IMG/VR virus record: IMGVR_UViG_3300045988_154391
Origin: a virus
Taxonomy: Duplodnaviria > Heunggongvirae > Uroviricota > Caudoviricetes
Strand: one strand, 5' to 3'
Length of the DNA: 64,000 nucleotides
Part shown: in pieces, positions 690-64,000 of the stretch
Layout: every line of letters starts with the position of its first letter
Numbering within the stretch: position 1 is the stretch's first letter
The notes under the pieces: generated by a model
The model's database searches: none
What the model saw: only the letters and a program-made list of their open reading frames with translations
Told to the model about the DNA's origin: nothing
Program-made: the position numbers and the translations under genes

Positions 690-694
690 ATTAT

Positions 695-712
695 GCCCGG
701 CATCAACCGGGC
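695..712. terminator. GC hairpin (GCCCGG-N6-CCGGGC) between two convergent genes; possible bidirectional terminator
   Basis: Perfect 6-bp stem read directly, 5 nt after the stop at 687-689 and 10 nt before the minus-strand stop at 722-724. Confidence 0.35.
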
Positions 713-721
713 ATTCTTCCA

Positions 722-1837
722 TTATTCAGCTGCCACCGGTTTTAACAAGCCAGCATCGAGCAGTTTACGCGTCAACCACTGCTGGCCTTTACCCGTTAAT
801 TGAGGCGTCAACCGTATCTGGTAGCCATCTTCATCATCCAGCACCACTTCTTTCACCGTGAAATACCCCGCGTTGATGTACTGCTGGAACGGCACATTTT
901 TACGTCCACCGGACGCTATCAGGATGCCGTTCTCCCGTAACCAGACAAACAGCGCGTTTTGCTTAAGTCCAACAACCTTTGCAAAATTCCCAATCAGGAT
1001 CCCTTTAGCTACTGATACCCGGTCGGCAAAATCGACTTTAGGAGCGGCGGCCACCAGCTGCTGATTTAGCTGGTGGGCTTTCTGTTCCAGAAGCTGCTTT
1101 TGTTCAGCCAGTTCGGCAGCCAGGCGCAGAGCTTCTGGAAGCGTCTGGGGGATTGCAACCGGTTGCTGTTCTTTTTGCCGGAAGTAGCTGTCTTCCAGTT
1201 TTTCAAAGAATGCCCATGCCTGATCGGTTTCGAGCATTTTAGCGTGGCGGGCTGCGCCGCGTTCCGTCCAGAGGATGAGTGAGCGGGCTTTAGGAGAGAT
1301 AGGATTTTGTGAGTTACTTAAAGTCACCCGCAAATTGTTCAAATCATCTCCAATAACTTTATAGAAATGCTTGCCTTCACAAAAACGTTCAGCATTACGG
1401 GAAAAGTTCTTCTTGATGTTATCCGCATCTGTCCCATACCCCTTAGCAAGGATCTTAGTTGTCACTACACGCACTCCCTGCCACTCTAGAACGGGAATTT
1501 CATCCGGCTGACTTTGAACAACCACCAGTTCTGATTCCTGAACTAAAGGTGTATTAATTTTTTCAGATTTAACGTTAGTAGCTTTCATTCTGTGTGCCTC
1601 CTTGCGTGTTTCGGCTGCGACGGTTGCGTAATTCAGATGCCCCTGTTCGAGCAGGTATTCACGGATATCAGACAGCAGGATACGGTGAACAGCGTTCTTG
1701 TCCTTTCTCCGGTAAAGTTGTTTGGTGATCATGAAGTAGTTGGCAATAACGCCTGGTATATCCCTGGTACTGATACAGGCAGTGTGCTGTTCAATTGCCT
1801 CGATCATCTCTTCACGGGTGACTAATGACGTTCTCAT
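722..1837 (-). CDS. ant: Antirepressor (Ant1-like): shared N-terminal region, central ORF6N/Bro-like segment, C-terminal KilAC/ANT domain
   Basis: 371 aa; C-terminal about 130 aa nearly identical to ORFs 51524..52570 and 50560..51360; start codon overlaps the stop of the upstream 73-aa gene (ATGA). Confidence 0.7.
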   Translation of the reverse strand: MRTSLVTREEMIEAIEQHTACISTRDIPGVIANYFMITKQLYRRKDKNAVHRILLSDIREYLLEQGHLNYATVAAETRKEAHRMKATNVKSEKINTPLVQESELVVVQSQPDEIPVLEWQGVRVVTTKILAKGYGTDADNIKKNFSRNAERFCEGKHFYKVIGDDLNNLRVTLSNSQNPISPKARSLILWTERGAARHAKMLETDQAWAFFEKLEDSYFRQKEQQPVAIPQTLPEALRLAAELAEQKQLLEQKAHQLNQQLVAAAPKVDFADRVSVAKGILIGNFAKVVGLKQNALFVWLRENGILIASGGRKNVPFQQYINAGYFTVKEVVLDDEDGYQIRLTPQLTGKGQQWLTRKLLDAGLLKPVAAE

Positions 1838-2055
1838 AGTCCCTCCTGAGCAGAAGCGTTAACAGGGAGGCACCAGTAACTGAGAGAATTGCGTGAATCA
1901 GTGGAAAAACGGGCAGAGAAAATACATGGGGCGTCAGGAAGCTGAGAGCGGGCCTCATCTTCTGTCGGTGCAATAACGAAGTGATAGTGACGTTTTTGGC
2001 AGGAGTAAAAGCGCCAGATAAATTCAGGATGAGTTGGGGTAGGGATAGTAGCCAT
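1834..2055 (-). CDS. icd: Icd-like small protein (73 aa), paralogue of ORF 52567..52788
   Basis: ORF 1834..2397 trimmed to the Met that aligns with the 73-aa paralogue (shared FIWRFYSC..HYHFVIA.TEDEARSQLPD); translationally coupled to ant as icd/ant are in P1. Confidence 0.5.
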   Translation of the reverse strand: MATIPTPTHPEFIWRFYSCQKRHYHFVIAPTEDEARSQLPDAPCIFSARFSTDSRNSLSYWCLPVNASAQEGL

Positions 2056-2213
2056 ATTGGCAGCCTCCTTAGACGTTGGTATGTAACCACCGCAGAAGAG
2101 ACCAATCTTGCTGGCGGTGGACTGTACGGAGTTGGCCTTACTGGCGTCCAAGGTAACCAGCCTACCCGAAGGTAGCCCCATACAGCCCACCATTGTAGAG
2201 GTGTGCGTGTACG

Positions 2214-2241
2214 CCGATACAAAAAAAGACGCGAGCGGCGT
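2214..2241 (-). terminator. Hairpin (GACGC-N5-GCGTC) followed by a T7 run on the minus strand, inside the leader upstream of the icd-like gene
   Basis: Read directly; lies between the operator-like site at 2374 and the icd-like start at 2055; could mark the 3' end of a short leader or antisense RNA. Confidence 0.3.
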
Positions 2242-2373
2242 CTGTATCGCCTTAGACTTAAGCGGGAGGCCAATCCCGGCACCCGTTTTAATGAGGTGCC
2301 TGATAAGCATAAACCGAAAATGCCTCAAGGCGCAAGAGGTCAGGTTCAATGTAACATCGGCAGTTAAAAAACA

Positions 2374-2390
2374 CAATTTATTAGAGCAAA
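2374..2390. promoter_or_regulatory. C1-operator-like 17-mer (15/17 to ATTGCTCTAATAAATTT, reverse orientation)
   Basis: caATTTATTAGAGCAAa read directly; immediately 3' of pacB and upstream of the icd/ant-like module. Confidence 0.45.
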
Positions 2391-2393
2391 TAT

Positions 2394-3878
2394 TCATTCA
2401 TTAAGCCATGCCAGAGCTTCATCAACCTGCGCTTCGTCTTCGACGCTAAGCACTTCATCCTGGGGAACATAATCCGCCAGCATAGCGAAACAATATGTAT
2501 CCCAATGGTCTGGTGAGTGCAGGTTGAGTTTTTTCTTCATATCCTCCTTACTCATCACCTTCCATTGACCTGCGGAGTTAATCCCTACAGGGATTTTCGA
2601 CGCTTCCTCAATAGTTTCATTACCCTTATCCAGTCTCATACGACCAGATTTTACGGCCTCTGCGGCTTGAACGTTGGCATAAGCACGTTTATCAAAGTAC
2701 AGGCTCTTATCTTCACGGCTATGCATCTTTTTACCCCAGCGTATACGCTGTACGGTAATACCATAATACTCGTACATCAGATCCGCCGTTGCTTTACCCA
2801 GCCCATCACCGTCTATCGCTATGGTGATATTTGGAAATCGCTCAGGATTACATTCTGCGAAAATTTTGGCGGCAAGCTGCGTTTCTGTAACGTCTGTGTA
2901 TTCCAGCATTCGATAGTTGATTACACGGCGTTTATTTCTCTGGCCGGACACCATCATGATATTGATAACGGACTTATCCCGTCCCGTACCACCAGCAACG
3001 TCCACACATGCAAGCCAGCCCCATCCTTTGGCAATCTTGACTTTCCGCCGCGTCGCACGTTCAACCTCATCACGTCCAAGAAGGAAGCCATCCTGTGATT
3101 TAGGGAATAGTCCGCGTACCTTAATCATGTACATAGGGTTATCACGCCCGCCGTACTCCGCCAGCTTCATTTTGATAAATGCTGGCGTTACCAGCGGTGA
3201 TTCCTCACTGTTAAGCGTGATCGCCGTATAAACGCCATCAGGGTTACCAGGACGCTTGGCCAGTTTATGGTGAGTATCGTAGAAATAGCCGCTTGGGCGT
3301 GTAGGCTGTGACAGTAATAAGATGCGGTTATCCTGTCCGGTAAGAGCACCGGTGATGATACCGAAAGCTCTATCACTGACACCGGAGGCTTCATCGATAA
3401 TATACAGAAGATGATCTGCGTGTTCACCGGCGAGAGCTTCTTCACTTCCCAGACGAAAGCCCTTCGGTACTACAGTCCATACACCTTTACCAGTAACCTC
3501 ATAGAAAGCGGTTTCTGTCAGAACAAAATAATCAGCAAGCCATGGAAAACGGCTGGTGGCAGTAGCCCAGTTTATCTTGATGTACTTGAATATACCGGTC
3601 ATTACCTGCTGAATTTTGTTCGCAACGATAATGGCGCGGGCACCGGGATACATGATTATGAACAACATGATCATGATAGAAGTCATGTCTGATTTCCCGG
3701 TACCGTGACCAGACGAAACAGATGTCTTGCTACCCTGTTCCTGCACAGACTCAATAATCAGATCCTGCTGCCAGGTAGGTGTTTTGCCGAACAAAACATC
3801 AGCGGCAGCAATCCAGTCATAACGATATAGCGCCACCAGCTCGCGCCAACGTGGATCCGTTACGCAACTTCTGGCCAT
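2394..3878 (-). CDS. pacB: Terminase large subunit (PacB-like)
   Basis: 494 aa; Walker A-like SGHGTGKS; sits directly after pacA with a 1-nt overlap; size matches what I recall for P1 PacB. Confidence 0.75.
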
Positions 3879-11775: not shown

Positions 11776-11776
11776 A

Positions 11777-12076: not shown

Positions 12077-12807
12077 TGGTTGCCTCCTTTGCGAAGCTGG
12101 GCAGCAAAGTCAACTAACCACTCAGTCATTTCAACCTTCCCTACCAGGTCTGAACCAGGGTGCATACAGCAATCACTCTGCGCCGCTTTGAAATCCTTAT
12201 ACTCATATTCTTGGGCCACCAGATTTTTTGCAGCTTCTATAGCAGCATCCACGCCCTGCGCCCGCACTTCAGCCAGGAAAGCATCGGTGGCTGGCATATT
12301 TCCTGTTGCCTTCATGGCCTCCAAAATAACCAGAACGCCATCTCGCCCAACCACCTCAGCGATAACCTCAGTGTTGTCGCCAACAACATCGCAGAATGCC
12401 TGAACTGCCTTACGAGCCAGCTCATTCTCCACTGCCAGCGCCGTGCGATTACCCTCCAGCTCTGCAATGCGCTGTTTTGCGGCATCCAGTTCAATCGACA
12501 ATTTTTCCAACTGCTCTTGATGCTTCTTGTATTCCTGATATGCGTGCCAAGACTGACCTTTGCGCACACTATCAGTGATATCAGTAATCTGTTCTGGTGT
12601 TAGCGTGGTCAGTGGCTGTGATGGGAAAATAAGCACTTTCCCGGAATCCCAATCAAAACCAGCGTGAATTGACTGAACCTCAACTGAAGGTGTTGAACCA
12701 ATGCTGCCAGGCGAATGAACAACGATTGTTACATCCATATCGCGACGATGGCTGTGGTTGTTGGACAAAATACGATTCACCAACTCAGAAAATTTGGAAA
12801 ATTTCAT
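12073..12807 (-). CDS. Ea22-like paralogue
   Basis: 244 aa; coiled-coil AAKQRIAELEGNRTALAVENELARKA; shares ATDAFLAE(I/V)RA with ORF 13091..13966. Confidence 0.5.
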   Translation of the reverse strand: MKFSKFSELVNRILSNNHSHRRDMDVTIVVHSPGSIGSTPSVEVQSIHAGFDWDSGKVLIFPSQPLTTLTPEQITDITDSVRKGQSWHAYQEYKKHQEQLEKLSIELDAAKQRIAELEGNRTALAVENELARKAVQAFCDVVGDNTEVIAEVVGRDGVLVILEAMKATGNMPATDAFLAEVRAQGVDAAIEAAKNLVAQEYEYKDFKAAQSDCCMHPGSDLVGKVEMTEWLVDFAAQLRKGGNQ

Positions 12808-13127
12808 GCTGATTCCCCTTTCTCTGCTCTCTCCTGTCGGAACATCACTATCATCAGGTCGCCTTTTGTCGCTATCCTGGCTGTTGTACCTGGTTCAATG
12901 CGGCTAAGCTCAAATGCGTCATAGAACGCTTCTAATGCCTTCTGGCGTAGTTCCTGTTTGCGCCGTTTTTTCCACTGTTTTAGGAAAATGGAACCCAGCC
13001 ATCGCCATGTGCGGGACATGATGTAAAGCCAACCGAGAAGTGCCAGACCGGTATTTAGGAGCGTATCGATCGTTATTGTCGTGTCGATATTCACTGGCTG
13101 CTTCCTTTGCGAATCTGTTCCGCCCAT
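12804..13127 (-). CDS. Small membrane protein, paralogue of ORF 10919..11206
   Basis: 107 aa; hydrophobic helix then ALEAFYDAFELSRIEPGTTARIATKGDLMIVMF; overlaps the 3' end of the preceding Ea22-like gene by 37 nt. Confidence 0.45.
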   Translation of the reverse strand: MGGTDSQRKQPVNIDTTITIDTLLNTGLALLGWLYIMSRTWRWLGSIFLKQWKKRRKQELRQKALEAFYDAFELSRIEPGTTARIATKGDLMIVMFRQERAEKGESA

Positions 13128-13966
13128 TCTTCAAGGGATTTCTCCGCATATTCACCAGACAGGCCATCAATCGGATGCGCTTCATTAGCCAACTCTTCTT
13201 TCGCTGACAAAATCATGCGTGTAACGTCGAAAACTTCACGCAAAGACTTATTGATAAATCCGTGATTGAACGCAGCAGCAAGACGGCTGGCGGTATAGTT
13301 AATCCCCTCGTTGCGTGCTTCCGCACGAATTTCAGACAGGAAAGCATCGGTGGCTGGGGTTTCGACATTAGGTCGAAGCTCATAATCACAAACTCTTTCA
13401 ATCCATGGTGATACTCTGTCGCATTTCCTCTTCTTGCGTTCACCGACCTTGGTTGCCTGCTGAATAATTACCCCCCAGCAAATGCTTTCGACCTCTTCGC
13501 TCCATCCATCGCAAGCATCGCCTCTATAGTCGTCAATTGCAGCCTCAGCAGCAGCGATAGCCTCCTCAGCAGTTTTGTGACACTCGAAACTAAATTCAGA
13601 GCCATATGAGAAATACATAGCCCCGGCCTTCAGCGCCGCATTCTCCGCTGCCAGCGCCGCGAGATTAGTCTCAAGCTCTGCAATTCGACACATAGCATCA
13701 ATATTTGTGTCCTCCAGGCGCTTAATTTCACCAAGCAGCTCCAGTGCAACCTTTGGGTTGAACGCGGCAACATAACGAGCGTTGTTCTCTGCATTTTTCT
13801 GTCCATCAAAGCCGGTCCATTTGATAACGTCTTCACATCGTTCATCACCGGGCGTGTGCACCGCATAAGTACCAGTATCCGTCGAAATAAATGCGACCCA
13901 TTCGTCTGGTGTTGCCTTTTCTGCCGCCTCACGCAGTACCTGATAGTCAATTGTCATTCTCGCCAT
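13091..13966 (-). CDS. Ead/Ea22-like protein
   Basis: 291 aa; N-terminal DYQVLREAAEKATPDEWV; coiled-coil RIAELETNLAALAAENAALKA. Confidence 0.55.
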   Translation of the reverse strand: MARMTIDYQVLREAAEKATPDEWVAFISTDTGTYAVHTPGDERCEDVIKWTGFDGQKNAENNARYVAAFNPKVALELLGEIKRLEDTNIDAMCRIAELETNLAALAAENAALKAGAMYFSYGSEFSFECHKTAEEAIAAAEAAIDDYRGDACDGWSEEVESICWGVIIQQATKVGERKKRKCDRVSPWIERVCDYELRPNVETPATDAFLSEIRAEARNEGINYTASRLAAAFNHGFINKSLREVFDVTRMILSAKEELANEAHPIDGLSGEYAEKSLEEWAEQIRKGSSQ

Positions 13967-38450: not shown

Positions 38451-38523
38451 GCCTGACTATTCACAGTTGTTGATAACTGCAATCCAGATGACGCCAGGCC
38501 GCGACACATATGGAGAAACCACG

Positions 38524-39408
38524 ATGCCGGAAGAAAATAAAGGCTTCCTTAGCGTTGAAGAAGTTGCAGGAAATACAGGAGAAATCCACAGCCTGAAACC
38601 CAATAACAATAGCACTATACAACCCATCGCTTTGTTGCGCTTAGGTGTGTTTGTGCCAACCTTAAAATCTACCAATGTGGCACTACGTCGCGGATCGTCA
38701 GTTACTACAAACACAACGAACGCAACCGAAGAACTATCAAGCCTCAAAATTGTTGAGCAGGAAGGCTATGAGGGAATTGAAATACATGGTCCACGCCTGG
38801 ATATGGATACTGATTTTAAGGTGTGGGTGGGCATAACCTCCGCGTTGTTTGACTACGCACCTGATGATGACGGCATAATCACCCTGCCATTCTCCGAGTT
38901 TGCCGATCGATGCGGCTATCCACGTAAGCGCCTTTCAAAGGCGTTCCGTAAAAGTATTGATGACTCTCTGACACGCATTCAGCAGACAGTTGTCAAATTC
39001 CGCTTCCCGGCGGCAAAAGGTCATCTCAATAACATTAACGTCAACTTGTTGGCATATAGCAGCCTGAATACCGAGCTTGATGTTATCGAGATCCAGCCGC
39101 AGAAACAGCTATCTGAACTTTACTATGTTGACTATAAGCGAATCCTGAAGCTGAAGATGCTGGATAAGCTCGGGCGCAAAGAGACGGCCAAGGTACTGTA
39201 TACATTCTTTGAGGCTCTACCTGCCAACCCGGCACCTGTCAGCATTGAGCGCCTTAGAGCAAGGCTTAATCTCAAATCATCCGTTAGCGTGCAAAATAGC
39301 GTTATCAGAAAAGCCATGAAAGATTTGGAAGCTATTGAATATCTTAAATTTTCAGAGATAAAAAACGGCAGGAAAATCGGCTTCCAGATCCATAAGCGCA
39401 ATCCATAA
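38524..39408 (+). CDS. repA: Plasmid replication initiator RepA
   Basis: 294 aa from the ATG at 38524 (GGAG upstream); P.ALLRLGVFVP and GPRLDMDTDFK resemble P1 RepA as I recall it. Confidence 0.8.
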   Translation: MPEENKGFLSVEEVAGNTGEIHSLKPNNNSTIQPIALLRLGVFVPTLKSTNVALRRGSSVTTNTTNATEELSSLKIVEQEGYEGIEIHGPRLDMDTDFKVWVGITSALFDYAPDDDGIITLPFSEFADRCGYPRKRLSKAFRKSIDDSLTRIQQTVVKFRFPAAKGHLNNINVNLLAYSSLNTELDVIEIQPQKQLSELYYVDYKRILKLKMLDKLGRKETAKVLYTFFEALPANPAPVSIERLRARLNLKSSVSVQNSVIRKAMKDLEAIEYLKFSEIKNGRKIGFQIHKRNP

Positions 39409-39409
39409 T

Positions 39410-39690
39410 ATTGACTATATGCGATAGCGAGAAGTTGACTATAGGCGACATTCGTTGACGCTGGTGGATTTTTGCTGGCGTCAATATTCTGCAAGCTGCT
39501 ATTGAGATGGCTTTTAGGGTCATTTCATCGCGTATAGTCAACGTTTCTCCCGACAATATCTTACATAGTCGATTTTTGGTGGAGTTAAATCGACTACAGT
39601 CAACTTTTGACTGTAGTCACATCGCGCATAGTCAACTATTCACATTAACTTTCGCGCATAGTCAACATTTGCGCGGTTCTCATCAAGCAG
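39410..39690. repeat. Iteron array downstream of repA in both orientations (incA-like copy-control locus)
   Basis: About 8-9 copies of TTGACTATA(T/G)GCGA and its reverse complement. Confidence 0.6.
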
Positions 39691-39700
39691 TGGTATTGAT

Positions 39701-40510
39701 ATGCAAGAAGAGAAACAACACTACCTCTACGTTCTGGTGCCGGAGAACGGAGATACTTTTAAAATCGGCATTTCATGTGGTCCATTGGCACGGTTTAAAG
39801 GGCTACAAGTGAATCCCGATTTTGCGCTTTCACGGGTCTATCGTGGTACGCGTTTGGCAATAGTTAATCTTGAGCGGGCTTTACACGCAACCTTTTTCCC
39901 CTGGAATGCGCCGTGGGAGAAAAGCGCCGGTGGCGGGCATACTGAATGGTTTACACGAGAGTGTCTTGATAAGGTTTTGGCTCATATCGAATATCTAAAT
40001 GATATGTGGGGAGGGATTCTCGAGCGGATTAAGTCGAATGATTTACTTCAGCGTCCAGTAGATGCTGCTCGCTCTTTCGAAAAAGAACTGGATGTTACTT
40101 CTATCGTGACTTTCAAAGATGACGCAGGAATGAGGGATGTGGCTTATGTCTCCATATCTGGCTATGAACCTGACGCGATCCGCGCTCAATGTGAATTGCT
40201 GAAAGCGATGTTTACGCTTCGGACTAAATATCCCTGGGAGACAGGGCGGGTGTGCTTCCCTATGGAAGAGTTAACCGCCACCATTGATTCCCAGCTTTAC
40301 CACGATAATCCAGAGAAGTTTTTTAGCCTTTTAGCCGGTAATGGGCTTAACTGTGTGTCCGGACTGGGGCGAAGTAGAATCCAACATGCCTCGCTCTTCG
40401 GTCCCTTCTTTTACGATCGAAACGGGTGCTTTGAGGCTGAACTTCCGGCGCTTACGCGTGCTATAGATACTATCGATTTCGAACGATTATTCGCAGCTCT
40501 TAACAAATAA
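39701..40510 (+). CDS. T5orf172/MUG113-type (GIY-YIG-like) domain protein
   Basis: 269 aa; N-terminal YLYVLVPENGDTFKIGIS...RFKGLQ...GGGHTEWF matches the T5orf172 signature as I recall it; lies between the iterons and parA and has its own terminator. Confidence 0.5.
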   Translation: MQEEKQHYLYVLVPENGDTFKIGISCGPLARFKGLQVNPDFALSRVYRGTRLAIVNLERALHATFFPWNAPWEKSAGGGHTEWFTRECLDKVLAHIEYLNDMWGGILERIKSNDLLQRPVDAARSFEKELDVTSIVTFKDDAGMRDVAYVSISGYEPDAIRAQCELLKAMFTLRTKYPWETGRVCFPMEELTATIDSQLYHDNPEKFFSLLAGNGLNCVSGLGRSRIQHASLFGPFFYDRNGCFEAELPALTRAIDTIDFERLFAALNK

Positions 40511-40517
40511 CACTGAT

Positions 40518-40538
40518 GCCCCTGAACGGGGCTTTTTT
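40518..40538 (+). terminator. Rho-independent terminator
   Basis: GCCCC-tgaac-GGGGC followed by TTTTTT, 8 nt after the stop. Confidence 0.65.
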
Positions 40539-40678
40539 GTGCCCTCCTTGCAACTCTCTATCGTGCAAAATGAACCAAACATGCAGAGAATGCTATGTAC
40601 AAGCATCTACGCATACATTATTATTTTATGCAGCATTTTTAATTAAATTCAAAAATACAGCATAAAGGATGACTTTCG

Positions 40679-41875
40679 ATGAGTGATTCCAGCCAGCTTC
40701 ACAAGGTTGCTCAAAGAGCAAACAGAATGCTCAATGTTCTGACTGAACAAGTACAGTTGCAAAAGGATGAGCTACACGCGAACGAGTTTTACCAGGTCTA
40801 TGCGAAAGCGGCACTGGCAAAACTGCCTCTACTGACTCGAGCGAACGTTGACTATGCCGTAAGTGAAATGGAAGAAAAGGGTTATGTTTTCGATAAACGC
40901 CCTGCTGGCTCTTCAATGAAATATGCGATGTCAATTCAGAACATCATTGACATATATGAACATCGCGGAGTGCCAAAATACCGGGATCGCTACAGCGAAG
41001 CGTATGTGATTTTCATCTCCAATCTTAAAGGCGGTGTGTCAAAAACTGTATCGACGGTTTCTCTGGCGCATGCAATGCGTGCTCACCCTCATCTTCTGAT
41101 GGAAGATTTAAGGATTCTGGTTATTGACCTTGATCCGCAATCTTCAGCAACGATGTTTTTAAGCCATAAACACTCTATTGGTATCGTAAACGCAACATCT
41201 GCACAGGCTATGTTGCAGAATGTAAGCCGTGAAGAGCTGTTAGAGGAGTTTATTGTTCCTTCTGTTGTACCTGGGGTTGACGTTATGCCTGCGTCGATTG
41301 ACGATGCCTTTATTGCATCCGATTGGAGAGAGCTGTGCAATGAGCATCTACCGGGTCAGAACATCCATGCTGTCCTGAAAGAAAATGTGATTGATAAGCT
41401 GAAGAGCGATTATGACTTTATCCTCGTTGATAGTGGTCCTCACCTTGACGCCTTCCTGAAAAATGCTTTGGCCTCGGCCAATATACTGTTTACACCTCTG
41501 CCGCCAGCAACTGTCGATTTCCACTCATCGCTTAAATACGTTGCCCGCCTTCCTGAGTTGGTGAAACTCATTTCGGATGAAGGCTGCGAGTGCCAGCTTG
41601 CGACTAACATTGGTTTTATGTCCAAGTTGAGTAACAAGGCAGACCATAAGTATTGCCATAGCCTGGCTAAAGAAGTGTTCGGTGGGGATATGCTCGATGT
41701 CGTCCTCCCTCGCCTTGACGGTTTTGAACGTTGCGGCGAGTCTTTTGACACTGTTATTTCAGCTAACCCGGCAACGTATGTTGGTAGTGCTGATGCATTG
41801 AAGAACGCGCGAATTGCCGCGGAAGATTTTGCTAAAGCAGTTTTTGACCGTATTGAATTTATCAGATCTAACTGA
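40679..41875 (+). CDS. parA: Partition ATPase ParA (type Ia, with N-terminal HTH extension)
   Basis: 398 aa; deviant Walker A KGGVSKT. Confidence 0.9.
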   Translation: MSDSSQLHKVAQRANRMLNVLTEQVQLQKDELHANEFYQVYAKAALAKLPLLTRANVDYAVSEMEEKGYVFDKRPAGSSMKYAMSIQNIIDIYEHRGVPKYRDRYSEAYVIFISNLKGGVSKTVSTVSLAHAMRAHPHLLMEDLRILVIDLDPQSSATMFLSHKHSIGIVNATSAQAMLQNVSREELLEEFIVPSVVPGVDVMPASIDDAFIASDWRELCNEHLPGQNIHAVLKENVIDKLKSDYDFILVDSGPHLDAFLKNALASANILFTPLPPATVDFHSSLKYVARLPELVKLISDEGCECQLATNIGFMSKLSNKADHKYCHSLAKEVFGGDMLDVVLPRLDGFERCGESFDTVISANPATYVGSADALKNARIAAEDFAKAVFDRIEFIRSN

Positions 41876-41891
41876 GGAGTAAGAAACCCCC

Positions 41892-42893
41892 ATGTCAAAG
41901 AAAAACAGACCAACAATTGGGCGAACCCTTAATCCTTCAATATTAAGCGGATTTGATAGTTCTTCAGCCTCTGGCGATCGAATCGAGCAGGTATTCAAGT
42001 TATCAACTGGTCGCCAGGCCACATTTATCGAGGAGATAATTCCTCCGAACCAGGTAGAAAGCGATACCTTTATTGATCAGCATAACAACGGGCGTGACCA
42101 GGCATCTCTTACGCCAAAATCATTAAAAAGTATCCGAAGCACTATTAAGCATCAGCAATTTTACCCTGCAATAGGTGTTAGACGGGCTACAGGGAAAATT
42201 GAAATTTTGGATGGTTCCCGGCGTCGAGCTTCTGCCATCTTAGAGAACGTAGGGTTGCGGGTTTTAGTCACGGACCAGGAGATCAGCGTTCAGGAAGCGC
42301 AAAATTTAGCGAAAGACGTTCAGACAGCATTGCAGCACAGCATTCGAGAAATAGGTCTGCGTTTGATGCGAATGAAAAATGATGGGATGAGTCAGAAGGA
42401 TATTGCAGCCAAAGAAGGACTGTCTCAGGCGAAGGTCACGCGTGCTCTCCAGGCAGCGAGTGCTCCGGAAGAATTAGTCGCCCTTTTCCCTGTGCAGTCG
42501 GAATTAACCTTTTCGGACTACAAAACGCTTTGTGCTGTTGGCGACGAAATGGGGAACAAGAATTTAGAGTTTGATCAGCTTATTCAAAACATATCCCCGG
42601 AAATAAACGACATCTTATCCATTGAAGAAATGGCCGAAGATGAAGTTAAAAATAAAATCCTGCGCTTGATAACAAAGGAAGCCTCACTACTCACGGATAA
42701 AGGTTCTAAAGATAAGTCCGTAGTTACTGAATTATGGAAATTTGAGGACAAGGATCGCTTTGCAAGGAAGCGCGTGAAAGGCCGTGCATTTTCTTATGAG
42801 TTTAATCGACTTTCAAAAGAGCTACAGGAAGAACTCGACAGGATGATTGGGCATATCCTTAGAAAGAGCCTCGATAAAAAGCCGAAGCCTTAA
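41892..42893 (+). CDS. parB: Partition protein ParB
   Basis: 333 aa; immediately downstream of parA and followed by parS-like heptamers. Confidence 0.9.
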   Translation: MSKKNRPTIGRTLNPSILSGFDSSSASGDRIEQVFKLSTGRQATFIEEIIPPNQVESDTFIDQHNNGRDQASLTPKSLKSIRSTIKHQQFYPAIGVRRATGKIEILDGSRRRASAILENVGLRVLVTDQEISVQEAQNLAKDVQTALQHSIREIGLRLMRMKNDGMSQKDIAAKEGLSQAKVTRALQAASAPEELVALFPVQSELTFSDYKTLCAVGDEMGNKNLEFDQLIQNISPEINDILSIEEMAEDEVKNKILRLITKEASLLTDKGSKDKSVVTELWKFEDKDRFARKRVKGRAFSYEFNRLSKELQEELDRMIGHILRKSLDKKPKP

Positions 42894-48609: not shown

Positions 48610-49206
48610 ATGGCTGTGATTCCAATGTCGTACTCCCCGGGTACTGTCGCTCGTCGATTTTCGATCCTGGACGGAGTTACCATCCAGGGTGTGCTTTACC
48701 AGGTTATATGGGATTCCAAAACCCCATTTGCAGCTGTAATAGAGGCTGCGCCTTCTATTATCGATGGTGATATGCGCCATAAGGTTGTCGCTACTCTTGA
48801 ACTTCAACGTCGCCCGCAGCTTGAAGGCGTACTGGTAAGGAAGTTCTGGGAGGATAGCGATGTTGCCCAGATTGAAGGTATCGTGGTTGATGGAACCGTC
48901 CGGGATGTCGGTTTAGCTACTTTTGTTTACGAAACCGTAGCCTCAAAAGCTGGTGTTGTTTTGCTCAGTGATAATGAGCAATACGAAGGTGGAAAAGCTC
49001 TTTGGCAACACATCGCCCGTCGCTCTTCCGAGCTAAAAGTGTTTATCCTTGACACCGATGCCGCTCAGTATTACCCGTTTGACGGCGAACGTGTTTGCTA
49101 TGACGGGGTAAGTATTCCTGAATCCGAGATATGGAGTGAACACCCAGATCGAAGTAAGCATGGGGTTGTTCTGGTCGCTGAATCCATAATTGGAAATGCG
49201 GCATAG
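48610..49206 (+). CDS. Hypothetical protein, isolated gene with its own AT-rich upstream region
   Basis: ORF 48574..49206 trimmed to the ATG at 48610 (AGGGGGA upstream). Confidence 0.4.
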   Translation: MAVIPMSYSPGTVARRFSILDGVTIQGVLYQVIWDSKTPFAAVIEAAPSIIDGDMRHKVVATLELQRRPQLEGVLVRKFWEDSDVAQIEGIVVDGTVRDVGLATFVYETVASKAGVVLLSDNEQYEGGKALWQHIARRSSELKVFILDTDAAQYYPFDGERVCYDGVSIPESEIWSEHPDRSKHGVVLVAESIIGNAA

Positions 49207-49388
49207 CAGTAAAAAATTCCTTGCTCCTTAAAAGGGGAGAGGGTTAATCTACGTATGCTAAGCATAGATATGGCCTCAGATTAATGTTAAGCGTCTTGCA
49301 GGACGCGTAATGTTATCTGGGGCTTTCTTCTATCTGCTTTTCGGGTAATGCCTGAAGCAGATAGCCTCAAGCACCCGCAACGATTGTA

Positions 49389-49634
49389 TCAATGTCTGGC
49401 TTTTTTTCTATAGAAATCACCTGGAAGGGTGAATATCCACATCAGAAGAAATGTTGCAGCAAACATGATCCCTAATGGCCAGACCGCGCCAAAGAAAATC
49501 CATTCTAAGATCTCCTCTGCTTGTTCTTTGCGGTCGATATCGACAAGCATTTTTCGGCTGATCATGTATACACAGAAGCCAATACAAACATATTCTGCAA
49601 AAGCGATCGCTAACTGTAAAAAATCAGATTGCAT
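49389..49634 (-). CDS. Small membrane protein downstream of repL
   Basis: ORF 49389..49715 trimmed to an internal Met to avoid overlapping repL; two hydrophobic segments. Confidence 0.35.
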   Translation of the reverse strand: MQSDFLQLAIAFAEYVCIGFCVYMISRKMLVDIDRKEQAEEILEWIFFGAVWPLGIMFAATFLLMWIFTLPGDFYRKKARH

Positions 49635-49684
49635 CTCCGACCTCAAACTGAAAACGCCAGGTGACTCCAGATTAGAGCAATCTA

Positions 49685-50530
49685 TCACCCTCTGAATCCT
49701 GCCGGTATACCCCATTGTTCGTTATCTTTATTTTTGGCTAAAACCGCATTAAGAGCTTCGTTTACCGTCATGCAATGCGGCAAATTATCGAAGTTTGATA
49801 CCCCGCCAATATCAGGAGAACGCTTGTTCTTCAGGTAAGCATATTTCCGCGCTGCCGCCTCTACTTTCTGCTTGAACTCATGTTTTTGAGCGCGCTTTTT
49901 GGATAACCGCAGATTGTCAGCCTTTGCTTTTGCCTCAGCGATCCATGAAGTCAATTTTTTGAGTCTGCTCGTTCCGGCACCGCCGGAAACTGATCTTTTT
50001 GTTTTTTTAACTTGTGACTTCTTATTCTTTATTGCCACGTCATCCTGACAGGGGGAGGGGGTATCATTTTGACATGGGGGTGTGGATAAAAAATTAAATA
50101 AAGCCAATGTCTTAGCGAGAACAGCTTTAACCTTGGTTGCCGCTGAAGAGATCTTTAATTTGCTTTCAATCAGCGCATTTTTGGCTTGTTGTGCGAAGGC
50201 CAAAAAGGATGGCGTAAACCGGTACAGGTTAGCGCGACGTTCACGGTGATCGCCGATAACAATCTCTACAGACAGAATTCCTTTGTTTACAGCTTCACGG
50301 AATGCACGAACGACGGTTGATTGGCTATAACCAGTTTCTGCCGCGATCAGGCGGTGAGGCTTGTGAATGAAGTATTCACTGGTTGTTGCCGCGAGATTTG
50401 CACATTGCGACAGGATATGCCCGGCGCTACGGGATAGACCGGAGTATGTTACAAAGCAGGCCAATTCATAGCCAGAAAAAGTAAAATCGCTCATCGTTAT
50501 ACAGCTCAGGAAAGTGACTTTAGCCAGCAT
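49685..50530 (-). CDS. repL: Lytic replication initiator RepL-like protein
   Basis: 281 aa directly downstream of the kilA-like gene, as in the P1 kilA-repL operon. Confidence 0.65.
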   Translation of the reverse strand: MLAKVTFLSCITMSDFTFSGYELACFVTYSGLSRSAGHILSQCANLAATTSEYFIHKPHRLIAAETGYSQSTVVRAFREAVNKGILSVEIVIGDHRERRANLYRFTPSFLAFAQQAKNALIESKLKISSAATKVKAVLAKTLALFNFLSTPPCQNDTPSPCQDDVAIKNKKSQVKKTKRSVSGGAGTSRLKKLTSWIAEAKAKADNLRLSKKRAQKHEFKQKVEAAARKYAYLKNKRSPDIGGVSNFDNLPHCMTVNEALNAVLAKNKDNEQWGIPAGFRG

Positions 50531-50559
50531 TACAATGCTGGTGGTTCTTACTACGTCTG

Positions 50560-51360
50560 TTAGCGCGTTGCCGCGACAGGTACCAGCACACCAGCATCAA
50601 GCAATCGCTTCATCAGCCACTGCTGACCTTTGCCGGTTATACGAGTCGTGAAAGAAATCCTGCTTCCATTGCTTGTATCGATCACGGTTTCTTTAAGGGT
50701 GAAATACCCACGGGATATGTATTCTTGTTTGGGGACGTTCCTGCGTTCACCGGTTGCGATCAGAATTCCGTTATCACGCAACCAGGTGAAGAGATAGTTT
50801 TGGCCCAGGCCGAGCACTTTGGCATAGTTGCCGATTAGAACCCCGCTGGCGGTAGCAACGCGTTCGGCGAATTCGACTTTAGGTGCATCCATAAGCATTT
50901 TTTGCTCCAGCCGTTGCTTTTGCTCTGCCAGGTCGGCAGCCAAACGGAGAGCTTCAGGGAGACTCTGCGGAATAGCAGGTTGTAATCTTCCAGCTCGATA
51001 GTCGATAAATGTCTGGTTTACCTTCAGCCGAAACGCGGGAGAAATCCAGCCTGCGTACTCCACAGCGAGCAATTCATGGGCAAAAGTGCCGCCGCCACGG
51101 CCTTCGAACGAAACTATGCAATTCTGCATAGTTTCTTTTTCAAGCTCTTCGATGAGCTGTTTGGCTGACAGCGTTCTTAGCCATTGAGCTGGCGCTTTAT
51201 GGGCACCGAGTCCGCTCGCTCTGTGTAGAGCATTAAGGTTGTAACGGCCAGCGCGGTCGGTCGTAATTTCAACACCACAAATAACAGGCAGAGTGGTTGA
51301 AGGATCGACATTTTGATGAAGGTTTGATATATTCATATCCGCATTGAATGTTTGTTGCAT
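50560..51360 (-). CDS. kilA: KilA-like protein (KilA-N domain plus KilAC/ANT C-terminal domain)
   Basis: 266 aa; C-terminal 120 aa paralogous to both Ant-like proteins; operator-like site upstream. Confidence 0.65.
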   Translation of the reverse strand: MQQTFNADMNISNLHQNVDPSTTLPVICGVEITTDRAGRYNLNALHRASGLGAHKAPAQWLRTLSAKQLIEELEKETMQNCIVSFEGRGGGTFAHELLAVEYAGWISPAFRLKVNQTFIDYRAGRLQPAIPQSLPEALRLAADLAEQKQRLEQKMLMDAPKVEFAERVATASGVLIGNYAKVLGLGQNYLFTWLRDNGILIATGERRNVPKQEYISRGYFTLKETVIDTSNGSRISFTTRITGKGQQWLMKRLLDAGVLVPVAATR

Positions 51361-51429
51361 TTTTTCTCCAAATTTGCATCAACCTTCAATCACCAGCTCG
51401 AAATGGTGATTCTTTGCACTTAGAAAACG

Positions 51430-51446
51430 AAATTTATTAGAGCAAA
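51430..51446. promoter_or_regulatory. C1-operator-like 17-mer (16/17) upstream of kilA-repL
   Basis: AAATTTATTAGAGCAAa. Confidence 0.55.
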
Positions 51447-51523
51447 TTTTTCTGACTCGATCCAGATCGGGTTGGTCGATCTGCTCAGAAACCTGCCAGT
51501 TTGCTGGCAGGTTTTTTCTTTTG

Positions 51524-52570
51524 TTAACCTATTGCTACTGGTTTTAACAAACCAGCATCAAGTAGCTTGCGAGTTAACCACTGCTGGCCTTTACCCGTTA
51601 ATTGGGGCGTCAGCCGTATCTGGTAGCCATTTTCATCATCCAGCACCACTTCTTTCACCGTGAAATATCCGGCGTTAATGTACTGCTGGCGCGGTACGTT
51701 TTTGCGCGCACCAAAAGCCATGAGAATGCCGTTCTGGCGCAACCATGAGAAAAGGGCGTTTTGCTTAAGTCCAACGACCTTTGCAAAGTTCCCGATCAGG
51801 ATTCCATTAGCCACTGATACCCGGTCGGCAAAATCGACTTTAGGGGCTGCGGCCACCAGCTGTTGTTCCAACTGCATTTTCTGTTCTGCCAACTCGGCAG
51901 CCAGGCGTAGAGCTTCTGGTAATGTTTGGGGGATCGATGGGGTAGGGGAGTTTGCCTGCTGCAATTCTTCCAGTTTGTCGATCAGCGAACGGCGGACCGC
52001 TTTCGATTCGCGAGCAGCAACGCGCAGGGCTTGTTTGTATGTCATTACTATAACTACCTGATCCGCTCCACCTTTTTTCTTATCCATAGGGGTTACGAAG
52101 ATTTCGTAACCCTCCCCATCAAGCTCATCCTTAACTCTGGCAATGAAATCATTGTTGCGAACTGGTTTTTCGCTACATAATTTCCGTGCCTCATTGACCA
52201 TCTTTAACAGTGTCAGGCTGTCGATTGTGTCTCCGGTGTTGGGGATAATATTCACGGCTGGTGCTGGCGTAGCTGACGTAACAGGTGCTGGTTTTTCAAC
52301 ATTCAAATTATTACCGGTCATTCTATGTGCCTCCTTTCTCATTTCTGCTGCCACTGTTGCGTAACGTAGACGTCCTTGTTCAATCAAATAATCCCTGATC
52401 TCGGCTATCAGTAGCCTGTTGATCACAGCCTTATCTGTTCGGGTATAAAAACGCCTGGTTATCATGAAATAGTTAGCAATTGCGCCGGGGATCTCCCGTG
52501 TCGGCATACAGGCAGTATGCAAAGCGATCGCTTCGGCTATTTCATTACGGGTGACGAGAGGTTTTTTCAT
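51524..52570 (-). CDS. ant: Antirepressor (Ant-like) with KilAC/ANT C-terminal domain
   Basis: 348 aa; N- and C-terminal thirds paralogous to ORF 722..1837, central third different; 4-nt overlap with the icd-like gene. Confidence 0.75.
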   Translation of the reverse strand: MKKPLVTRNEIAEAIALHTACMPTREIPGAIANYFMITRRFYTRTDKAVINRLLIAEIRDYLIEQGRLRYATVAAEMRKEAHRMTGNNLNVEKPAPVTSATPAPAVNIIPNTGDTIDSLTLLKMVNEARKLCSEKPVRNNDFIARVKDELDGEGYEIFVTPMDKKKGGADQVVIVMTYKQALRVAARESKAVRRSLIDKLEELQQANSPTPSIPQTLPEALRLAAELAEQKMQLEQQLVAAAPKVDFADRVSVANGILIGNFAKVVGLKQNALFSWLRQNGILMAFGARKNVPRQQYINAGYFTVKEVVLDDENGYQIRLTPQLTGKGQQWLTRKLLDAGLLKPVAIG

Positions 52571-52788
52571 AAAACCCCCTGAACGTCGGCAGAGAAGGGG
52601 AGGTTCCAGTAACTAAGTGAATTGCGCGAGTTAGTTGAAAAACGGGCAGTAAAAATGCAGGGGCCATCAGGCAATTGGGAGCGTGCTTCGTCTTCTGTTG
52701 CTGCGATAACGAAGTGATAGTGGTGTTTTTTACAGGAATAGAAACGCCAGATGAATTCTTGGCGTGCGCAAGGATTGGCATTAACCAT
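52567..52788 (-). CDS. icd: Icd-like small protein (73 aa)
   Basis: Paralogue of ORF 1834..2055; translationally coupled to ant. Confidence 0.55.
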   Translation of the reverse strand: MVNANPCARQEFIWRFYSCKKHHYHFVIAATEDEARSQLPDGPCIFTARFSTNSRNSLSYWNLPFSADVQGVL

Positions 52789-53118
52789 AGTTACGGCCTC
52801 GTAAGTTGATAAACAACCTGCGACCCGCTGTCAAACAGGTGGCAGGACGTGACAGGGTTGACAGACTGGCACTTACGAAACCAGCAGGCCGAAGCCTCCC
52901 CATCACGCCCCACCATAATTCGGGCGTAACGTGGTTTTACGGACACAAAAATACCGCAATATCGGAAATGTGCGGTTGTCCGCGTAAGTATTCAGGCTGT
53001 CAAACCTGGTCGCAGAATTTGCTGCGACGGCGGAACTATAAGCCTGAACGATTAAAAGGTCAATATGATGCGAAAAGATAGCATTCGTGACTTAAAAATA
53101 CAAATTTATTAGAGCATT

Positions 53119-53135
53119 GTTTGTTTAATAAATAC
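53119..53135. promoter_or_regulatory. C1-operator-like 17-mer (16/17) upstream of the icd-ant leader
   Basis: AAATTTATTAGAGCAtT. Confidence 0.5.
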
Positions 53136-53214
53136 ACAAATGGATCTAATAACCTCTTTTTTTTAAAGGCGAAAATATGTACCCTAAATGAGTTATAAGG
53201 CAGGTGAGGTTATA

Positions 53215-63169: not shown

Positions 63170-64000
63170 ATGAATGACGTTACAGTTGTTACATCGGTTA
63201 CTTACCCATCACCCGAGTCGTTGGCTCTGGTGGCTGATGTGCAATACCACGAACCATATCTGTCAGCCGCTCTAAACCGAAAATTCAGGGGAATTGTTGA
63301 CCCGGGATTTTATGCTGGTTTCTTGCCTAAGCCTGGCGGTGGGATGAAACTGTTAATCACCTCAGTGGATGGTGATAAAACCGCTGGCGCGGCGTCAGTG
63401 AATATTGGTGAATTCTACCAGGTAACTATTCAGCAGCGTAAGGATATTTCTCTTGCACTTAGCGCAGGTAAGAAATATGCAATTGTGCTGAAGGGAAGAT
63501 ACCTCCTTGGAGAAGATTCTTATCAGGTTAATACCGCGTCACATATTCATGCGGCTGAATTTGTTGCCAGAACCTATACCGATTCATATCAGTTAGGAGA
63601 TGGGGAACTGCTTGTTTGTACGGTGAATATCCCTGCTGGCGTATCTGCTATTACTCAGGAAATGATAGATGTATCCGACCGCATCGATCTCACGATAGGC
63701 ATTGAAATTTCCGACTCTGTAACCAGTACCAGAAGTGATGTCGCTGCAAGTTCGCTGGCAGTTAAAAAAGCCTACGATCTGGCGAAAAGCAAGTATACGG
63801 CGCAGGATGCAAGCACAACGCAAAAGGGATTAGTTCAGCTCAGTAGTGCTACTAACAGCACGTCTGAAGTGCTGGCCGCCACACCGAAAGCTGTCAAGGC
63901 TGCATATGACCTGGCTAACGGGAAGTATACAGCCCAGGATGCAACCACGACACAAAAAGGGATAGTTCAGCTCAGTAGCGACACCAACAGCACTTCTGAA
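63170..64000 (+). CDS. Tail fibre protein S, N-terminal part (3' end beyond window)
   Basis: ATG at 63170 with AAGGA 8 nt upstream; open to the window end; repeated KYTAQDA(S/T)TTQKG(L/I)VQLSS.TNSTSE units. Confidence 0.7.
   Translation, partial: MNDVTVVTSVTYPSPESLALVADVQYHEPYLSAALNRKFRGIVDPGFYAGFLPKPGGGMKLLITSVDGDKTAGAASVNIGEFYQVTIQQRKDISLALSAGKKYAIVLKGRYLLGEDSYQVNTASHIHAAEFVARTYTDSYQLGDGELLVCTVNIPAGVSAITQEMIDVSDRIDLTIGIEISDSVTSTRSDVAASSLAVKKAYDLAKSKYTAQDASTTQKGLVQLSSATNSTSEVLAATPKAVKAAYDLANGKYTAQDATTTQKGIVQLSSDTNSTSE

What the first reader, a model, noticed from the sequence alone, without database searches (positions are those of the whole stretch)
50560..52570. Three KilAC-domain paralogues with near-identical DNA blocks
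The 3' 300 nt of the two ant-like genes (722..1000 and 51524..51800) are about 90 percent identical at DNA level and the kilA-like gene shares the same C-terminal domain, while N-terminal and central domains differ (ORF6N-like, unrelated, KilA-N). This pattern fits domain shuffling by recombination within the element, which could also promote rearrangement between the two icd/ant loci some 50 kb apart.
Basis: seen in the sequence. Interest (0 to 1): 0.5.

Follow-up and report, generated by a model that had tools for sequence, protein, structure and literature searches.

The report
Two antirepressor operons sharing recombining ends
This P1-like phage-plasmid carries the normal P1 antirepressor operon plus kilA and a second complete antirepressor operon with its own antisense RNA; the three proteins share an end domain, but only at 84% and about 61-64% DNA identity, which is a known kind of phage gene mosaicism.

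Summary
The window is a P1/P7-like phage-plasmid. It has three KilAC (Pfam ANT) genes: ant1 51524-52570, kilA 50560-51360, and an extra ant ("antX") 722-1837.

"Near-identical DNA blocks" is overstated.
The longest exact runs are 36, 32 and 29 nt, and dS is 0.79.
- kilA is 61-64% identical to either ant gene, with synonymous sites saturated.
- The two Ant proteins also share an 84-codon N-terminal block. Only the central domain is swapped.

antX sits in a 1.7-kb insert between c1 and pacB. The insert is a complete second immI-type operon: a C1-operator-like site, a leader with a1/b1, a C4 antisense RNA, a2/b2, icd, then ant. Its pairing elements differ from those of the resident P7-type C4.

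Across 76 related modules I found 14 covarying C4/target specificities. The N and C blocks are conserved and flank an old, variable central cassette. Conversion tracts and crossovers lie inside the KilAC block.

So recombination-driven shuffling is supported. Rearrangement between the two loci is not: none of about 815 matching PLSDB plasmid records shows it. This is a new member of a known kind, of modest interest.

The parts
722..1837 (-). antX, the extra antirepressor gene (371 aa). N block = codons 1-84 (1586-1837). Central ORF6N domain = 1154-1585. KilAC C block = 722-1153. A conserved internal Ant2-like start lies at 1586-1588, preceded by AAGGAGG.
   Evidence: ORF; Pfam ORF6N 8.7e-19 and ANT 5.9e-31; block limits; internal start at aa 84 as in P1 ant2
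1834..2055 (-). icdX, a 73-aa Icd-like ORF. Its stop overlaps the antX start (ATGA), as icd/ant1 do in the canonical operon.
   Evidence: Sequence; phrog_1426 1.2e-45, the same family as canonical Icd; 80% nt identity to icd over 161 nt
2067..2105 (-). Predicted a2 (2099-2105, TTGGTCT) and b2 (2067-2074, GTCTAAGG) targets of C4X. b2 overlaps the icdX Shine-Dalgarno sequence.
   Evidence: Complementarity to a' and b' read; best-pair search
2110..2197 (-). C4X, a C4-family antisense RNA (core 2116-2191). b' loop ACCTTGGAC is at 2146-2154 and a' AGGCCAA at 2132-2138.
   Evidence: Rfam RF01695 75.9 bits, gathering score 45; predicted fold -41.6 kcal/mol with the same topology as the canonical C4
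2222..2299 (-). Leader RNA element with a1 (2267-2273, TTGGCCT, in a hairpin loop), b1 (2250-2257, GTCTAAGG) and an intrinsic terminator (2227-2243 plus a T run).
   Evidence: Rfam isrK RF01394 60.8 bits, gathering score 50; c4-a1b1 20.5 bits; terminator scan
2374..2390 (-). C1-operator-like site TTTGCTCTAATAAATTG, matching the consensus at 15 of 17 positions, directly after the pacB stop codon.
   Evidence: Pattern search: 11 sites in the window against 0.24 expected
693..714 (.). GC-rich hairpin between the convergent c1 and antX stop codons; terminator-like.
690..2395 (-). The whole 1.7-kb insert. P1 has 24 bp here, between the c1 stop and the pacB stop.
   Evidence: Alignment with the P1 junction; the insert is absent from P1, P7 and SJ46 and present in RCS47, 673R5 and JL22
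51524..52570 (-). ant1/ant2, the canonical P1/P7 antirepressor. N block = 52319-52570. Central domain = 51935-52318. KilAC C block = 51524-51934. The ant2 start is at 52319-52321.
   Evidence: 98.5% identical to P7 and 96% to P1 across the region; P1 annotation; Pfam ANT 1.4e-30
52567..52788 (-). icd (canonical).
52835..52920 (-). Canonical C4 antisense RNA with the b' loop TCGTAAGT (P1 has TCACTAAC) and a' CTGTCAA. I call it P7-type because the region is 98.5% identical to P7; the P7 b' sequence itself was not extracted.
   Evidence: Rfam 69.6 bits; comparison with the annotated P1 c4; region identity to P7
52989..53041 (-). Canonical a1/b1 leader.
   Evidence: Rfam c4-a1b1 61.2 bits
53102..53118 (-). 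C1 operator of the canonical immI operon (equivalent to P1 Oc4/Op51).
50560..51360 (-). kilA: KilA-N (aa 27-123) plus KilAC (aa 152-254). A C1 operator lies at 51430-51446.
   Evidence: Pfam; P1 annotation; operator
49685..50530 (-). repL, the lytic replicon gene, downstream of kilA. Given for context.

Best explanation
The window is a P1/P7-like phage-plasmid. It carries two complete, parallel immI-type antirepressor operons, plus kilA.

Each operon has the same order: C1 operator, leader with a1/b1, C4 antisense RNA, a2/b2, icd, then ant, with an internal Ant2-type start inside ant. The canonical operon lies next to kilA-repL. The second is a self-contained 1.7-kb cassette inserted between the convergent c1 and pacB genes.

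The three KilAC domains are homologous by descent. The two ant genes belong to two allele lineages, X-type and 1-type. Their N-terminal block and KilAC block are conserved. In the population of P1-like elements these blocks act as homology arms. Between them an old, divergent central domain (ORF6N-type or Ant1-type) is exchanged, and conversion tracts pass within them. That history accounts for the 84% DNA block. It is not a recent duplication.

Inferred function: in the lysogen each C4 RNA pairs with its own a2/b2 sites and blocks icd translation, and with it the coupled ant expression. The two C4 RNAs have different pairing elements, so neither should silence the other operon. The element would then be immune to superinfecting relatives of either C4 type. 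Its own antX would escape the C4 of a resident P1 or P7 prophage.

The two ant copies in this window are too diverged to recombine often, and a crossover between them would give non-viable products.
For: Shown:
- Identity of the element and of the canonical genes.
- Limits of the insert.
- Pfam domains.
- Two C4 RNAs above the Rfam gathering score, and both leaders.
- C1-operator-like sites upstream of both operons and of kilA.
- The icd/ant ATGA overlap, and the conserved internal start with its Shine-Dalgarno sequence.
- Different a'/b' elements, each with matching targets.
- 14 (b',a') types in 76 modules, with a1/a2 and b1/b2 covarying.
- One complete plasmid, pE2865-1, with four modules, each a different type.
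- Conserved arms and a variable centre.
- Conversion tracts and crossovers in the KilAC block.
- 268 of 816 matching PLSDB records carry the c1-pacB module at 80% or more coverage. The insertion has been noted in the literature (PMC6906374).
- No junction variants in about 815 matching records.
- The RepA-like gene and parA/parB lie between the two loci, and c1 lies outside them.

Inferred from established P1/P7 biology (Citron and Schuster 1990; Biere et al. 1992; my own knowledge):
- C4 blocks icd translation.
- ant is expressed through coupling to icd.
- A difference in b' alone makes P1 and P7 heteroimmune.
Against: - No experiment shows that AntX binds or inactivates C1, or that C4X represses icdX.
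- The operator has 2 mismatches.
- The promoter scan found no sigma-70 match upstream of C4X on the minus strand. Only weak hexamers lie at the positions homologous to P1 P51a/b, and that is my reading.
- RNAduplex energies computed with stem flanks included did not separate cognate from non-cognate pairs cleanly. The orthogonality claim rests on loop complementarity and on covariation.
- The IMG/VR sample was recruited with antX peptides, so every locus has an X-type N block. This is a sampling bias.
- Conversion donors could be co-resident or co-infecting relatives rather than the paralogue in the same element.
Confidence: 0.75

Rival explanations
1. The KilAC blocks are near-identical repeats that actively recombine within this element. 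They shuffle domains and cause deletions or rearrangements between the two icd/ant loci 50.8 kb apart.
For: - The two copies are direct repeats.
- Exact runs of 36, 32 and 29 nt exist.
- Relatives show conversion tracts and crossovers in this block.
- In one draft genome, contigs L087 and L059 carry reciprocal junctions between two other, 95-99% identical modules.
Against: - Identity is 84%, and dS is 0.79.
- The window's antX has no tract derived from its own ant1.
- None of 815 and 821 matching PLSDB records shows either predicted junction, and none of 782 shows the L087 junction.
- Truncated variants are deletions to pdcB, several with IS1 next to antX, not ant-ant crossovers.
- A crossover would separate c1 from repA/parAB.
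Confidence: 0.1
2. Plain ancient duplication. The three KilAC domains diverged vertically under purifying selection, and the DNA similarity carries no recombination history.
For: Low dN/dS (0.08) in the C block, and saturated synonymous sites against kilA.
Against: - Synonymous divergence is very uneven along the same gene pair: pS is 0.77 in the N block and 0.49 in the C block.
- Among alleles, dS is 0.5-1.3 in the centre and 0.01-0.47 in the arms.
- Diagnostic sites are patchy.
- There are hybrid genes: L066, L087, and plasmids such as the Sanji one.
Confidence: 0.1
3. The second operon is a decaying or silent remnant of an insertion with no role in immunity.
For: Weak promoter hexamers, with no hit in the scan. 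The operator has 2 mismatches.
Against: - All parts are intact and in register. C4X is invariant in 23 modules. The a/b targets covary with a'/b' across types.
- antX is under purifying selection.
- The module is present in 268 PLSDB records.
Confidence: 0.05

Closest known systems
P1/P7 immI operon (c4-icd-ant1/ant2)
   Same: The canonical copy at 51524-53118 is this operon. The region is 98.5% identical to P7, so I call its C4 P7-type. The second copy has the same order and the same logic: C1 operator, a1/b1 leader, C4 RNA, a2/b2 over the icd ribosome-binding site, the icd-ant ATGA overlap, and an internal Ant2-type start.
   Different: - The second copy lies between c1 and pacB.
- It uses a different C4 scaffold and different a'/b' sequences.
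- Its leader scores as isrK rather than c4-a1b1.
- Its Ant has an ORF6N central domain.
- Activity has not been tested.
P1 KilA (KilA-N plus KilAC), expressed from the C1-controlled kilA-repL operon
   Same: The gene at 50560-51360 is kilA (98.5% identical to P7, 96% to P1) and has the same KilAC domain as the Ant proteins.
   Different: It shares only 61-64% DNA identity with either ant C block. It has no C4/icd control and no Ant N block.
The Bro/KilA/Ant domain-shuffling network of phage regulators (Iyer, Koonin and Aravind 2002, PMC88810; called the 'Bro network' in PMC10111431)
   Same: ANT/KilAC is combined with ORF6N, KilA-N or Phage_pRha N-terminal modules. This is the published pattern.
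   Different: Here the exchange can be followed at the DNA level within one phage group, with conserved flanking arms and visible conversion tracts.
Gifsy-1 isrK-orf45-anrP locus and the P4 CI/seqA immunity RNAs
   Same: The leader of module X passes the Rfam isrK threshold. It is already published that the C4 and isrK profiles detect CI and seqA relatives (PMC10111431).
   Different: The Gifsy-1 paper describes IsrK as an activator of orf45/anrP translation and reports no C4 RNA (PMC4825925). Here a C4 RNA lies between the leader and icd.
Extra ant/icd insertions already noted in P1-like and D6-like plasmids (pTZ20_1P, RCS47, pSvP1, pYU39_89)
   Same: This is the same insertion between pacB and c1 (PMC6906374). 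A second c4/icd region has also been noted in a D6-like plasmid (PMC6799933).
   Different: Those reports are descriptive. I did not find the C4 specificity, the operator or the cassette structure analysed in the library I searched.

Membership tests
Pfam ANT (KilAC, PF03374) | Domain match above the gathering score. | tested here: met
   107.4, 106.3 and 112.2 bits against a cut-off of 25.3 for antX, Ant1 and KilA.
Pfam ORF6N (PF10543) and KilA-N (PF04383) | Domain match above the gathering score. | tested here: met
   antX has ORF6N at 68 bits (cut-off 27.8). KilA has KilA-N at 75.4 bits (cut-off 23.8). The Ant1 centre matches neither.
P1-type immI operon (module X) | A C4 antisense RNA upstream of icd. 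| tested here: met
   RF01695 at 75.9 bits, gathering score 45, at 2110-2197.
P1-type immI operon (module X) | Two pairs of target sites complementary to a' and b', one pair in the leader and one over the icd ribosome-binding site. | tested here: met
   a1 TTGGCCT, b1 GTCTAAGG, a2 TTGGTCT, b2 GTCTAAGG overlapping AAGGAGG. The targets covary with a'/b' across 14 types.
P1-type immI operon (module X) | A C1 operator and a promoter upstream. | tested here: inconclusive
   The operator-like site matches 15 of 17 positions. No consensus promoter was found by the scan.
P1-type immI operon (module X) | icd translationally coupled to ant, and two in-frame Ant products. | tested here: met
   The ATGA overlap. 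The internal ATG at codon 84 with AAGGAGG, at the position of P1 ant2. This is sequence-level evidence only.
P1-type immI operon (module X) | Ant inactivates the C1 repressor, and C4 represses ant in trans. | not testable with these tools
   Needs genetics or biochemistry.
Recombinogenic dispersed repeats that rearrange the genome | Long stretches of near identity between the copies. | tested here: not met
   83.6% over 408 nt, with a longest exact run of 36 nt.
Recombinogenic dispersed repeats that rearrange the genome | Rearranged variants in relatives. | tested here: not met
   No record with 80% or more of either predicted junction in one place, among 815 and 821 matching PLSDB plasmid records.

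The most novel reading that the evidence does not exclude
P1-like phage-plasmids carry one to four orthogonal C4-icd-ant modules, drawn from a combinatorial set of at least 14 antisense specificities (b' crossed with a', on three RNA scaffolds). The extra modules serve in competition between related phages. Each added C4 extends immunity. Each added Ant escapes the C4 of a resident relative and can derepress it. The conserved N and KilAC blocks are the arms through which central Ant domains are swapped, and those domains may set the target range.
Probability: 0.4. Interest if true: 0.6.

Novelty: new member of a known kind. Interest (0 to 1): 0.33.

Why it matters
For this finding, little. KilAC paralogues and Bro/Ant domain shuffling are textbook phage mosaicism, and the extra ant between pacB and c1 is already annotated in RCS47-like plasmids.

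The wider picture is more useful.
- P1-like plasmids are common in E. coli and often carry resistance genes.
- Their compatibility and mutual induction may depend on which C4/Ant modules they hold.
- A catalogue of C4 specificities would predict which pairs are heteroimmune.
- The covarying a'/b' and target sets are a natural library of orthogonal antisense switches.

Tried and rejected
- **Central-domain homology.** A profile-profile comparison of the ORF6N-type and Ant1-type central domains gave 0.4% probability, so no homology was detected. Both domains hit phrog_1726. I leave this open.
- **Truncated antX variants in PLSDB and phage phi456.** I took these as candidate ant-ant recombinants. 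All five loci checked are deletions running from antX to pdcB, and IS1 abuts antX in three of them.
- **L087.** It carries a pacB-module-baseplate-flank junction on a 25.8-kb contig, and L059 from the same draft genome carries the reciprocal junction. This would be a resolved circle, but the junction is absent from 782 matching PLSDB records. I treat it as a probable repeat-induced misassembly and cannot settle it without reads.
- **RNAduplex on a'/b' segments with stem flanks.** The energies were dominated by spurious pairings. I replaced this with a direct complementarity count.
- **MAFFT alignment of the three C4 scaffolds.** It misaligned the outer stem, so I ran no pair counts.
- **PDB sequence search with antX.** No hit at E of 1 or below.
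- **Literature searches.** I found no analysis of multi-module immI.
Full report
**What the window is.** Megablast of both regions places the window in the P1 group (Punavirus). The stretch 49500-53200 is 98.5% identical to P7 and 96% to P1. It carries, on the minus strand, the immI region followed by the start of the lytic replicon: c4, icd, ant1/ant2, kilA and repL. The start of the window holds the 3' part of c1 (1-689, plus strand) and pacB (2394-3878, minus strand).

**The observation.** Three ORFs carry the Pfam ANT/KilAC domain well above threshold:
- antX 722-1837, which has ORF6N plus ANT;
- ant1 51524-52570, which has ANT only;
- kilA 50560-51360, which has KilA-N plus ANT.

The self-comparison reports the repeat family at 714-1013, 51516-51815 and 50555-50854.

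Random pairs of 279-nt windows average 25% and never exceed 37%. In a codon alignment the shared 3' block covers 136 codons (408 nt) at 83.6%, with one 7-codon indel. The longest exact runs are 36, 32 and 29 nt. kilA is 61-64% identical to either ant gene, and its longest runs are 12 nt or less.

So the similarity is real and extended for the ant pair, but it is not "about 90%" or "near-identical". For kilA it is ordinary domain homology.

The two Ant proteins also share their first 84 codons (65.5% nt). Only the central 128-144 codons are unrelated.

Substitutions in the C block are mostly synonymous (dS 0.79, dN 0.063). Synonymous sites are saturated in the N block and against kilA.

**What lies around antX.** In P1 the c1 and pacB stop codons are 24 bp apart. 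Here 1.7 kb (690-2395) lies between them. Read on the minus strand, the insert contains, in order:
- a C1-operator-like site, TTTGCTCTAATAAATTG, at 2374-2390. It matches the consensus at 15 of 17 positions. The window holds 11 such sites against 0.24 expected by chance, and they include the operators of the canonical c4 and kilA promoters;
- a leader that passes the Rfam isrK threshold, at 2222-2299 (60.8 bits), with an intrinsic terminator;
- a C4 antisense RNA at 2110-2197 (75.9 bits, gathering score 45);
- a 73-aa Icd homologue at 1834-2055, whose stop overlaps the antX start (ATGA);
- antX itself;
- a hairpin at 693-714.

antX keeps the internal ATG at codon 84 with an AAGGAGG Shine-Dalgarno sequence. 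This is the position where P1 ant2 starts.

The canonical operon at 51524-53118 has the same parts in the same order. The window therefore holds two complete immI-type operons.

The 187-aa ORF at 1834-2397 with a Phage_ASH hit is a translation across the C4 RNA, not a gene.

**Specificity of the two antisense RNAs.** In P1 the annotated C4 pairs through b' (TCACTAAC) and a' (CTGTCAA) with b1/b2 and a1/a2.
- The canonical C4 here has b' TCGTAAGT, with targets ACTTACGC and ACTTACGA, and a' CTGTCAA, with target TTGACAG. The region is 98.5% identical to P7, so I call it P7-type, although I did not extract the P7 b' sequence itself.
- C4X has b' ACCTTGGAC, with target GTCTAAGG in both the leader and over the icdX ribosome-binding site. 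It has a' AGGCCAA, with targets TTGGCCT and TTGGTCT.

Neither element of one RNA matches the targets of the other.

From my own knowledge of the P1/P7 literature (Citron and Schuster 1990; Biere et al. 1992), a difference in b' alone makes P1 and P7 heteroimmune. C4 acts by blocking icd translation, to which ant expression is coupled. On that basis I infer that the two operons are independently gated. This has not been tested.

**Relatives.** The c1-pacB module is present at 80% or more coverage in 268 of 816 matching PLSDB records. It has been noted in print as [quoted passage not shown] (PMC6906374).

A scan of IMG/VR with antX returned 79 loci. Modules occur at the c1-pacB site, at the canonical site, at a site that is empty here (between 26423 and 26469), and on the cre side of c1. 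The complete plasmid pE2865-1 has four modules plus kilA.

Across 76 modules I found three C4 scaffolds and 14 (b',a') combinations. In every one, the a1/a2 and b1/b2 targets change in step with a' and b'. The four modules of pE2865-1 all differ from each other.

**Recombination history.** Against this window's antX, the 70 complete genes keep the N block at 92-100% and the C block at 83-99%. The centre runs through alleles at 100, 95, 83, 78, 76, 72 and 69%, or is an Ant1-type centre.

Synonymous divergence is 0.5-1.3 in the centre and 0.01-0.47 in the arms. The same contrast separates the ant1 gene here from that of P1.

At 64 sites that distinguish X-type from 1-type C blocks, several genes carry contiguous 1-type tracts:
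- L087 and L083 switch type partway through the block;
- L066 is X-type up to the block boundary and 1-type from there on into kilA-repL. Many complete plasmids share that hybrid;
- L009 equals this window's antX except for 5 substitutions within 31 nt (window 974-1004), and all five carry the ant1 state.

This is direct evidence that the KilAC block exchanges sequence between ant lineages. The sample is biased toward X-type N blocks, because the search peptides came from antX. The donors may be co-resident or co-infecting elements rather than the paralogue in the same element.

**Rearrangement between the two loci.** The copies are direct repeats 50.8 kb apart.

I built the two junctions that a crossover at the C-block boundary would create and searched PLSDB. 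No record covered 80% or more of either junction in one place, among 815 and 821 matching records.

The truncated antX variants I checked are deletions running from antX to pdcB, and IS1 abuts antX in three of the five loci.

The RepA-like gene and parA/parB (38467-42893) lie between the two loci, and c1 lies outside them. A crossover would therefore give one circle with the replicon but no repressor, and another circle with c1 but no replicon. I infer that neither would persist.

The window's antX differs from the X-type consensus at only 2 sites in the C block, and just one of those matches its own ant1, so there is no conversion tract from the resident paralogue.

One draft genome shows reciprocal junctions between two other modules that share a 450-nt, 95-99% identical icd/N block (L087 and L059). 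No complete plasmid has that junction, so I regard it as a probable misassembly.

**The KilAC domain itself.** There is no sequence relative in the PDB.

Database homologues of the block at 59-67% identity often carry a Phage_pRha N-terminal domain instead. This fits the published Bro/KilA/Ant shuffling network (PMC88810, cited in PMC10111431).

**Verdict.**
- The domain-shuffling reading is supported at the population level.
- The rearrangement idea is not supported.
- The feature is a further member of a known kind: P1 immI-type operons and Bro-network antirepressors.
- The part worth following up is the set of orthogonal C4 specificities and the multi-module plasmids. I did not find these analysed in the searched library.

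Noticed in passing
window 49202-49376 (-): Rfam sok antitoxin RNA hit (94.7 bits, gathering score 59), just downstream of repL. It suggests a hok/sok-type module at the position where P1 has rlfA. I did not look for the toxin ORF.
   Followed up: no
window 1834-2397 (-): A 187-aa ORF with a Pfam Phage_ASH hit spans the C4X RNA and its leader. The 'ash family protein' annotations at this place in PLSDB records are probably translations of the RNA gene. The real icdX starts at 2055.
   Followed up: partly
window 2222-2299 and 52947-53028 (-): The Rfam isrK model matches the a1/b1 leaders of both operons, at 60.8 and 48.4 bits. isrK and c4-a1b1 therefore describe the same kind of element, although isrK is not in the C4 clan.
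   Followed up: partly
window 26423-26469: The intergenic gap between a baseplate-V-like gene and a glycosyltransferase-like gene is an empty insertion site here. In L083, L084 and pE2865-1 a further C4-icd-ant module sits at this position.
   Followed up: yes
L088+L089 (NZ_AP018809.1, pE2865-1): A complete 99.5-kb P1-like plasmid with four icd-ant modules (one in inverted orientation, on the cre side of c1) plus kilA. Each module has a different C4 (b',a') pair.
   Followed up: yes
L087 and L059 (IMG genome 2548876964): Two contigs carry reciprocal junctions between the pacB-site and baseplate-site modules, with the switch inside the shared 450-nt icd/N block. The L087 contig (25,810 nt) is close to the size of the circle such a crossover would excise. 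No complete plasmid shows this junction. It is either a misassembly or a real resolution product; this is undecided.
   Followed up: partly
L002 (phage phi456), L005-L008 (plasmids): There are recurrent deletions running from inside antX to pdcB, which remove pacAB and lpa. IS1 sits directly at the antX breakpoint in L002, L006 and L007, but not in L005 or L008. These are defective P1-like plasmids.
   Followed up: partly
window 29395-29467, 31314-31386, 31392-31464 (-): Three tRNA genes (Rfam tRNA, 65-75 bits), as expected for P1-like phages.
   Followed up: no
window 63770-64000 and 11459-13952: Diverged direct repeats inside coding sequence. One is 99 nt at 80% in the tail-fibre-like region at the end of the window. 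The others are 40-49 nt at 83-88% between 11.4 and 13.9 kb.
   Followed up: no
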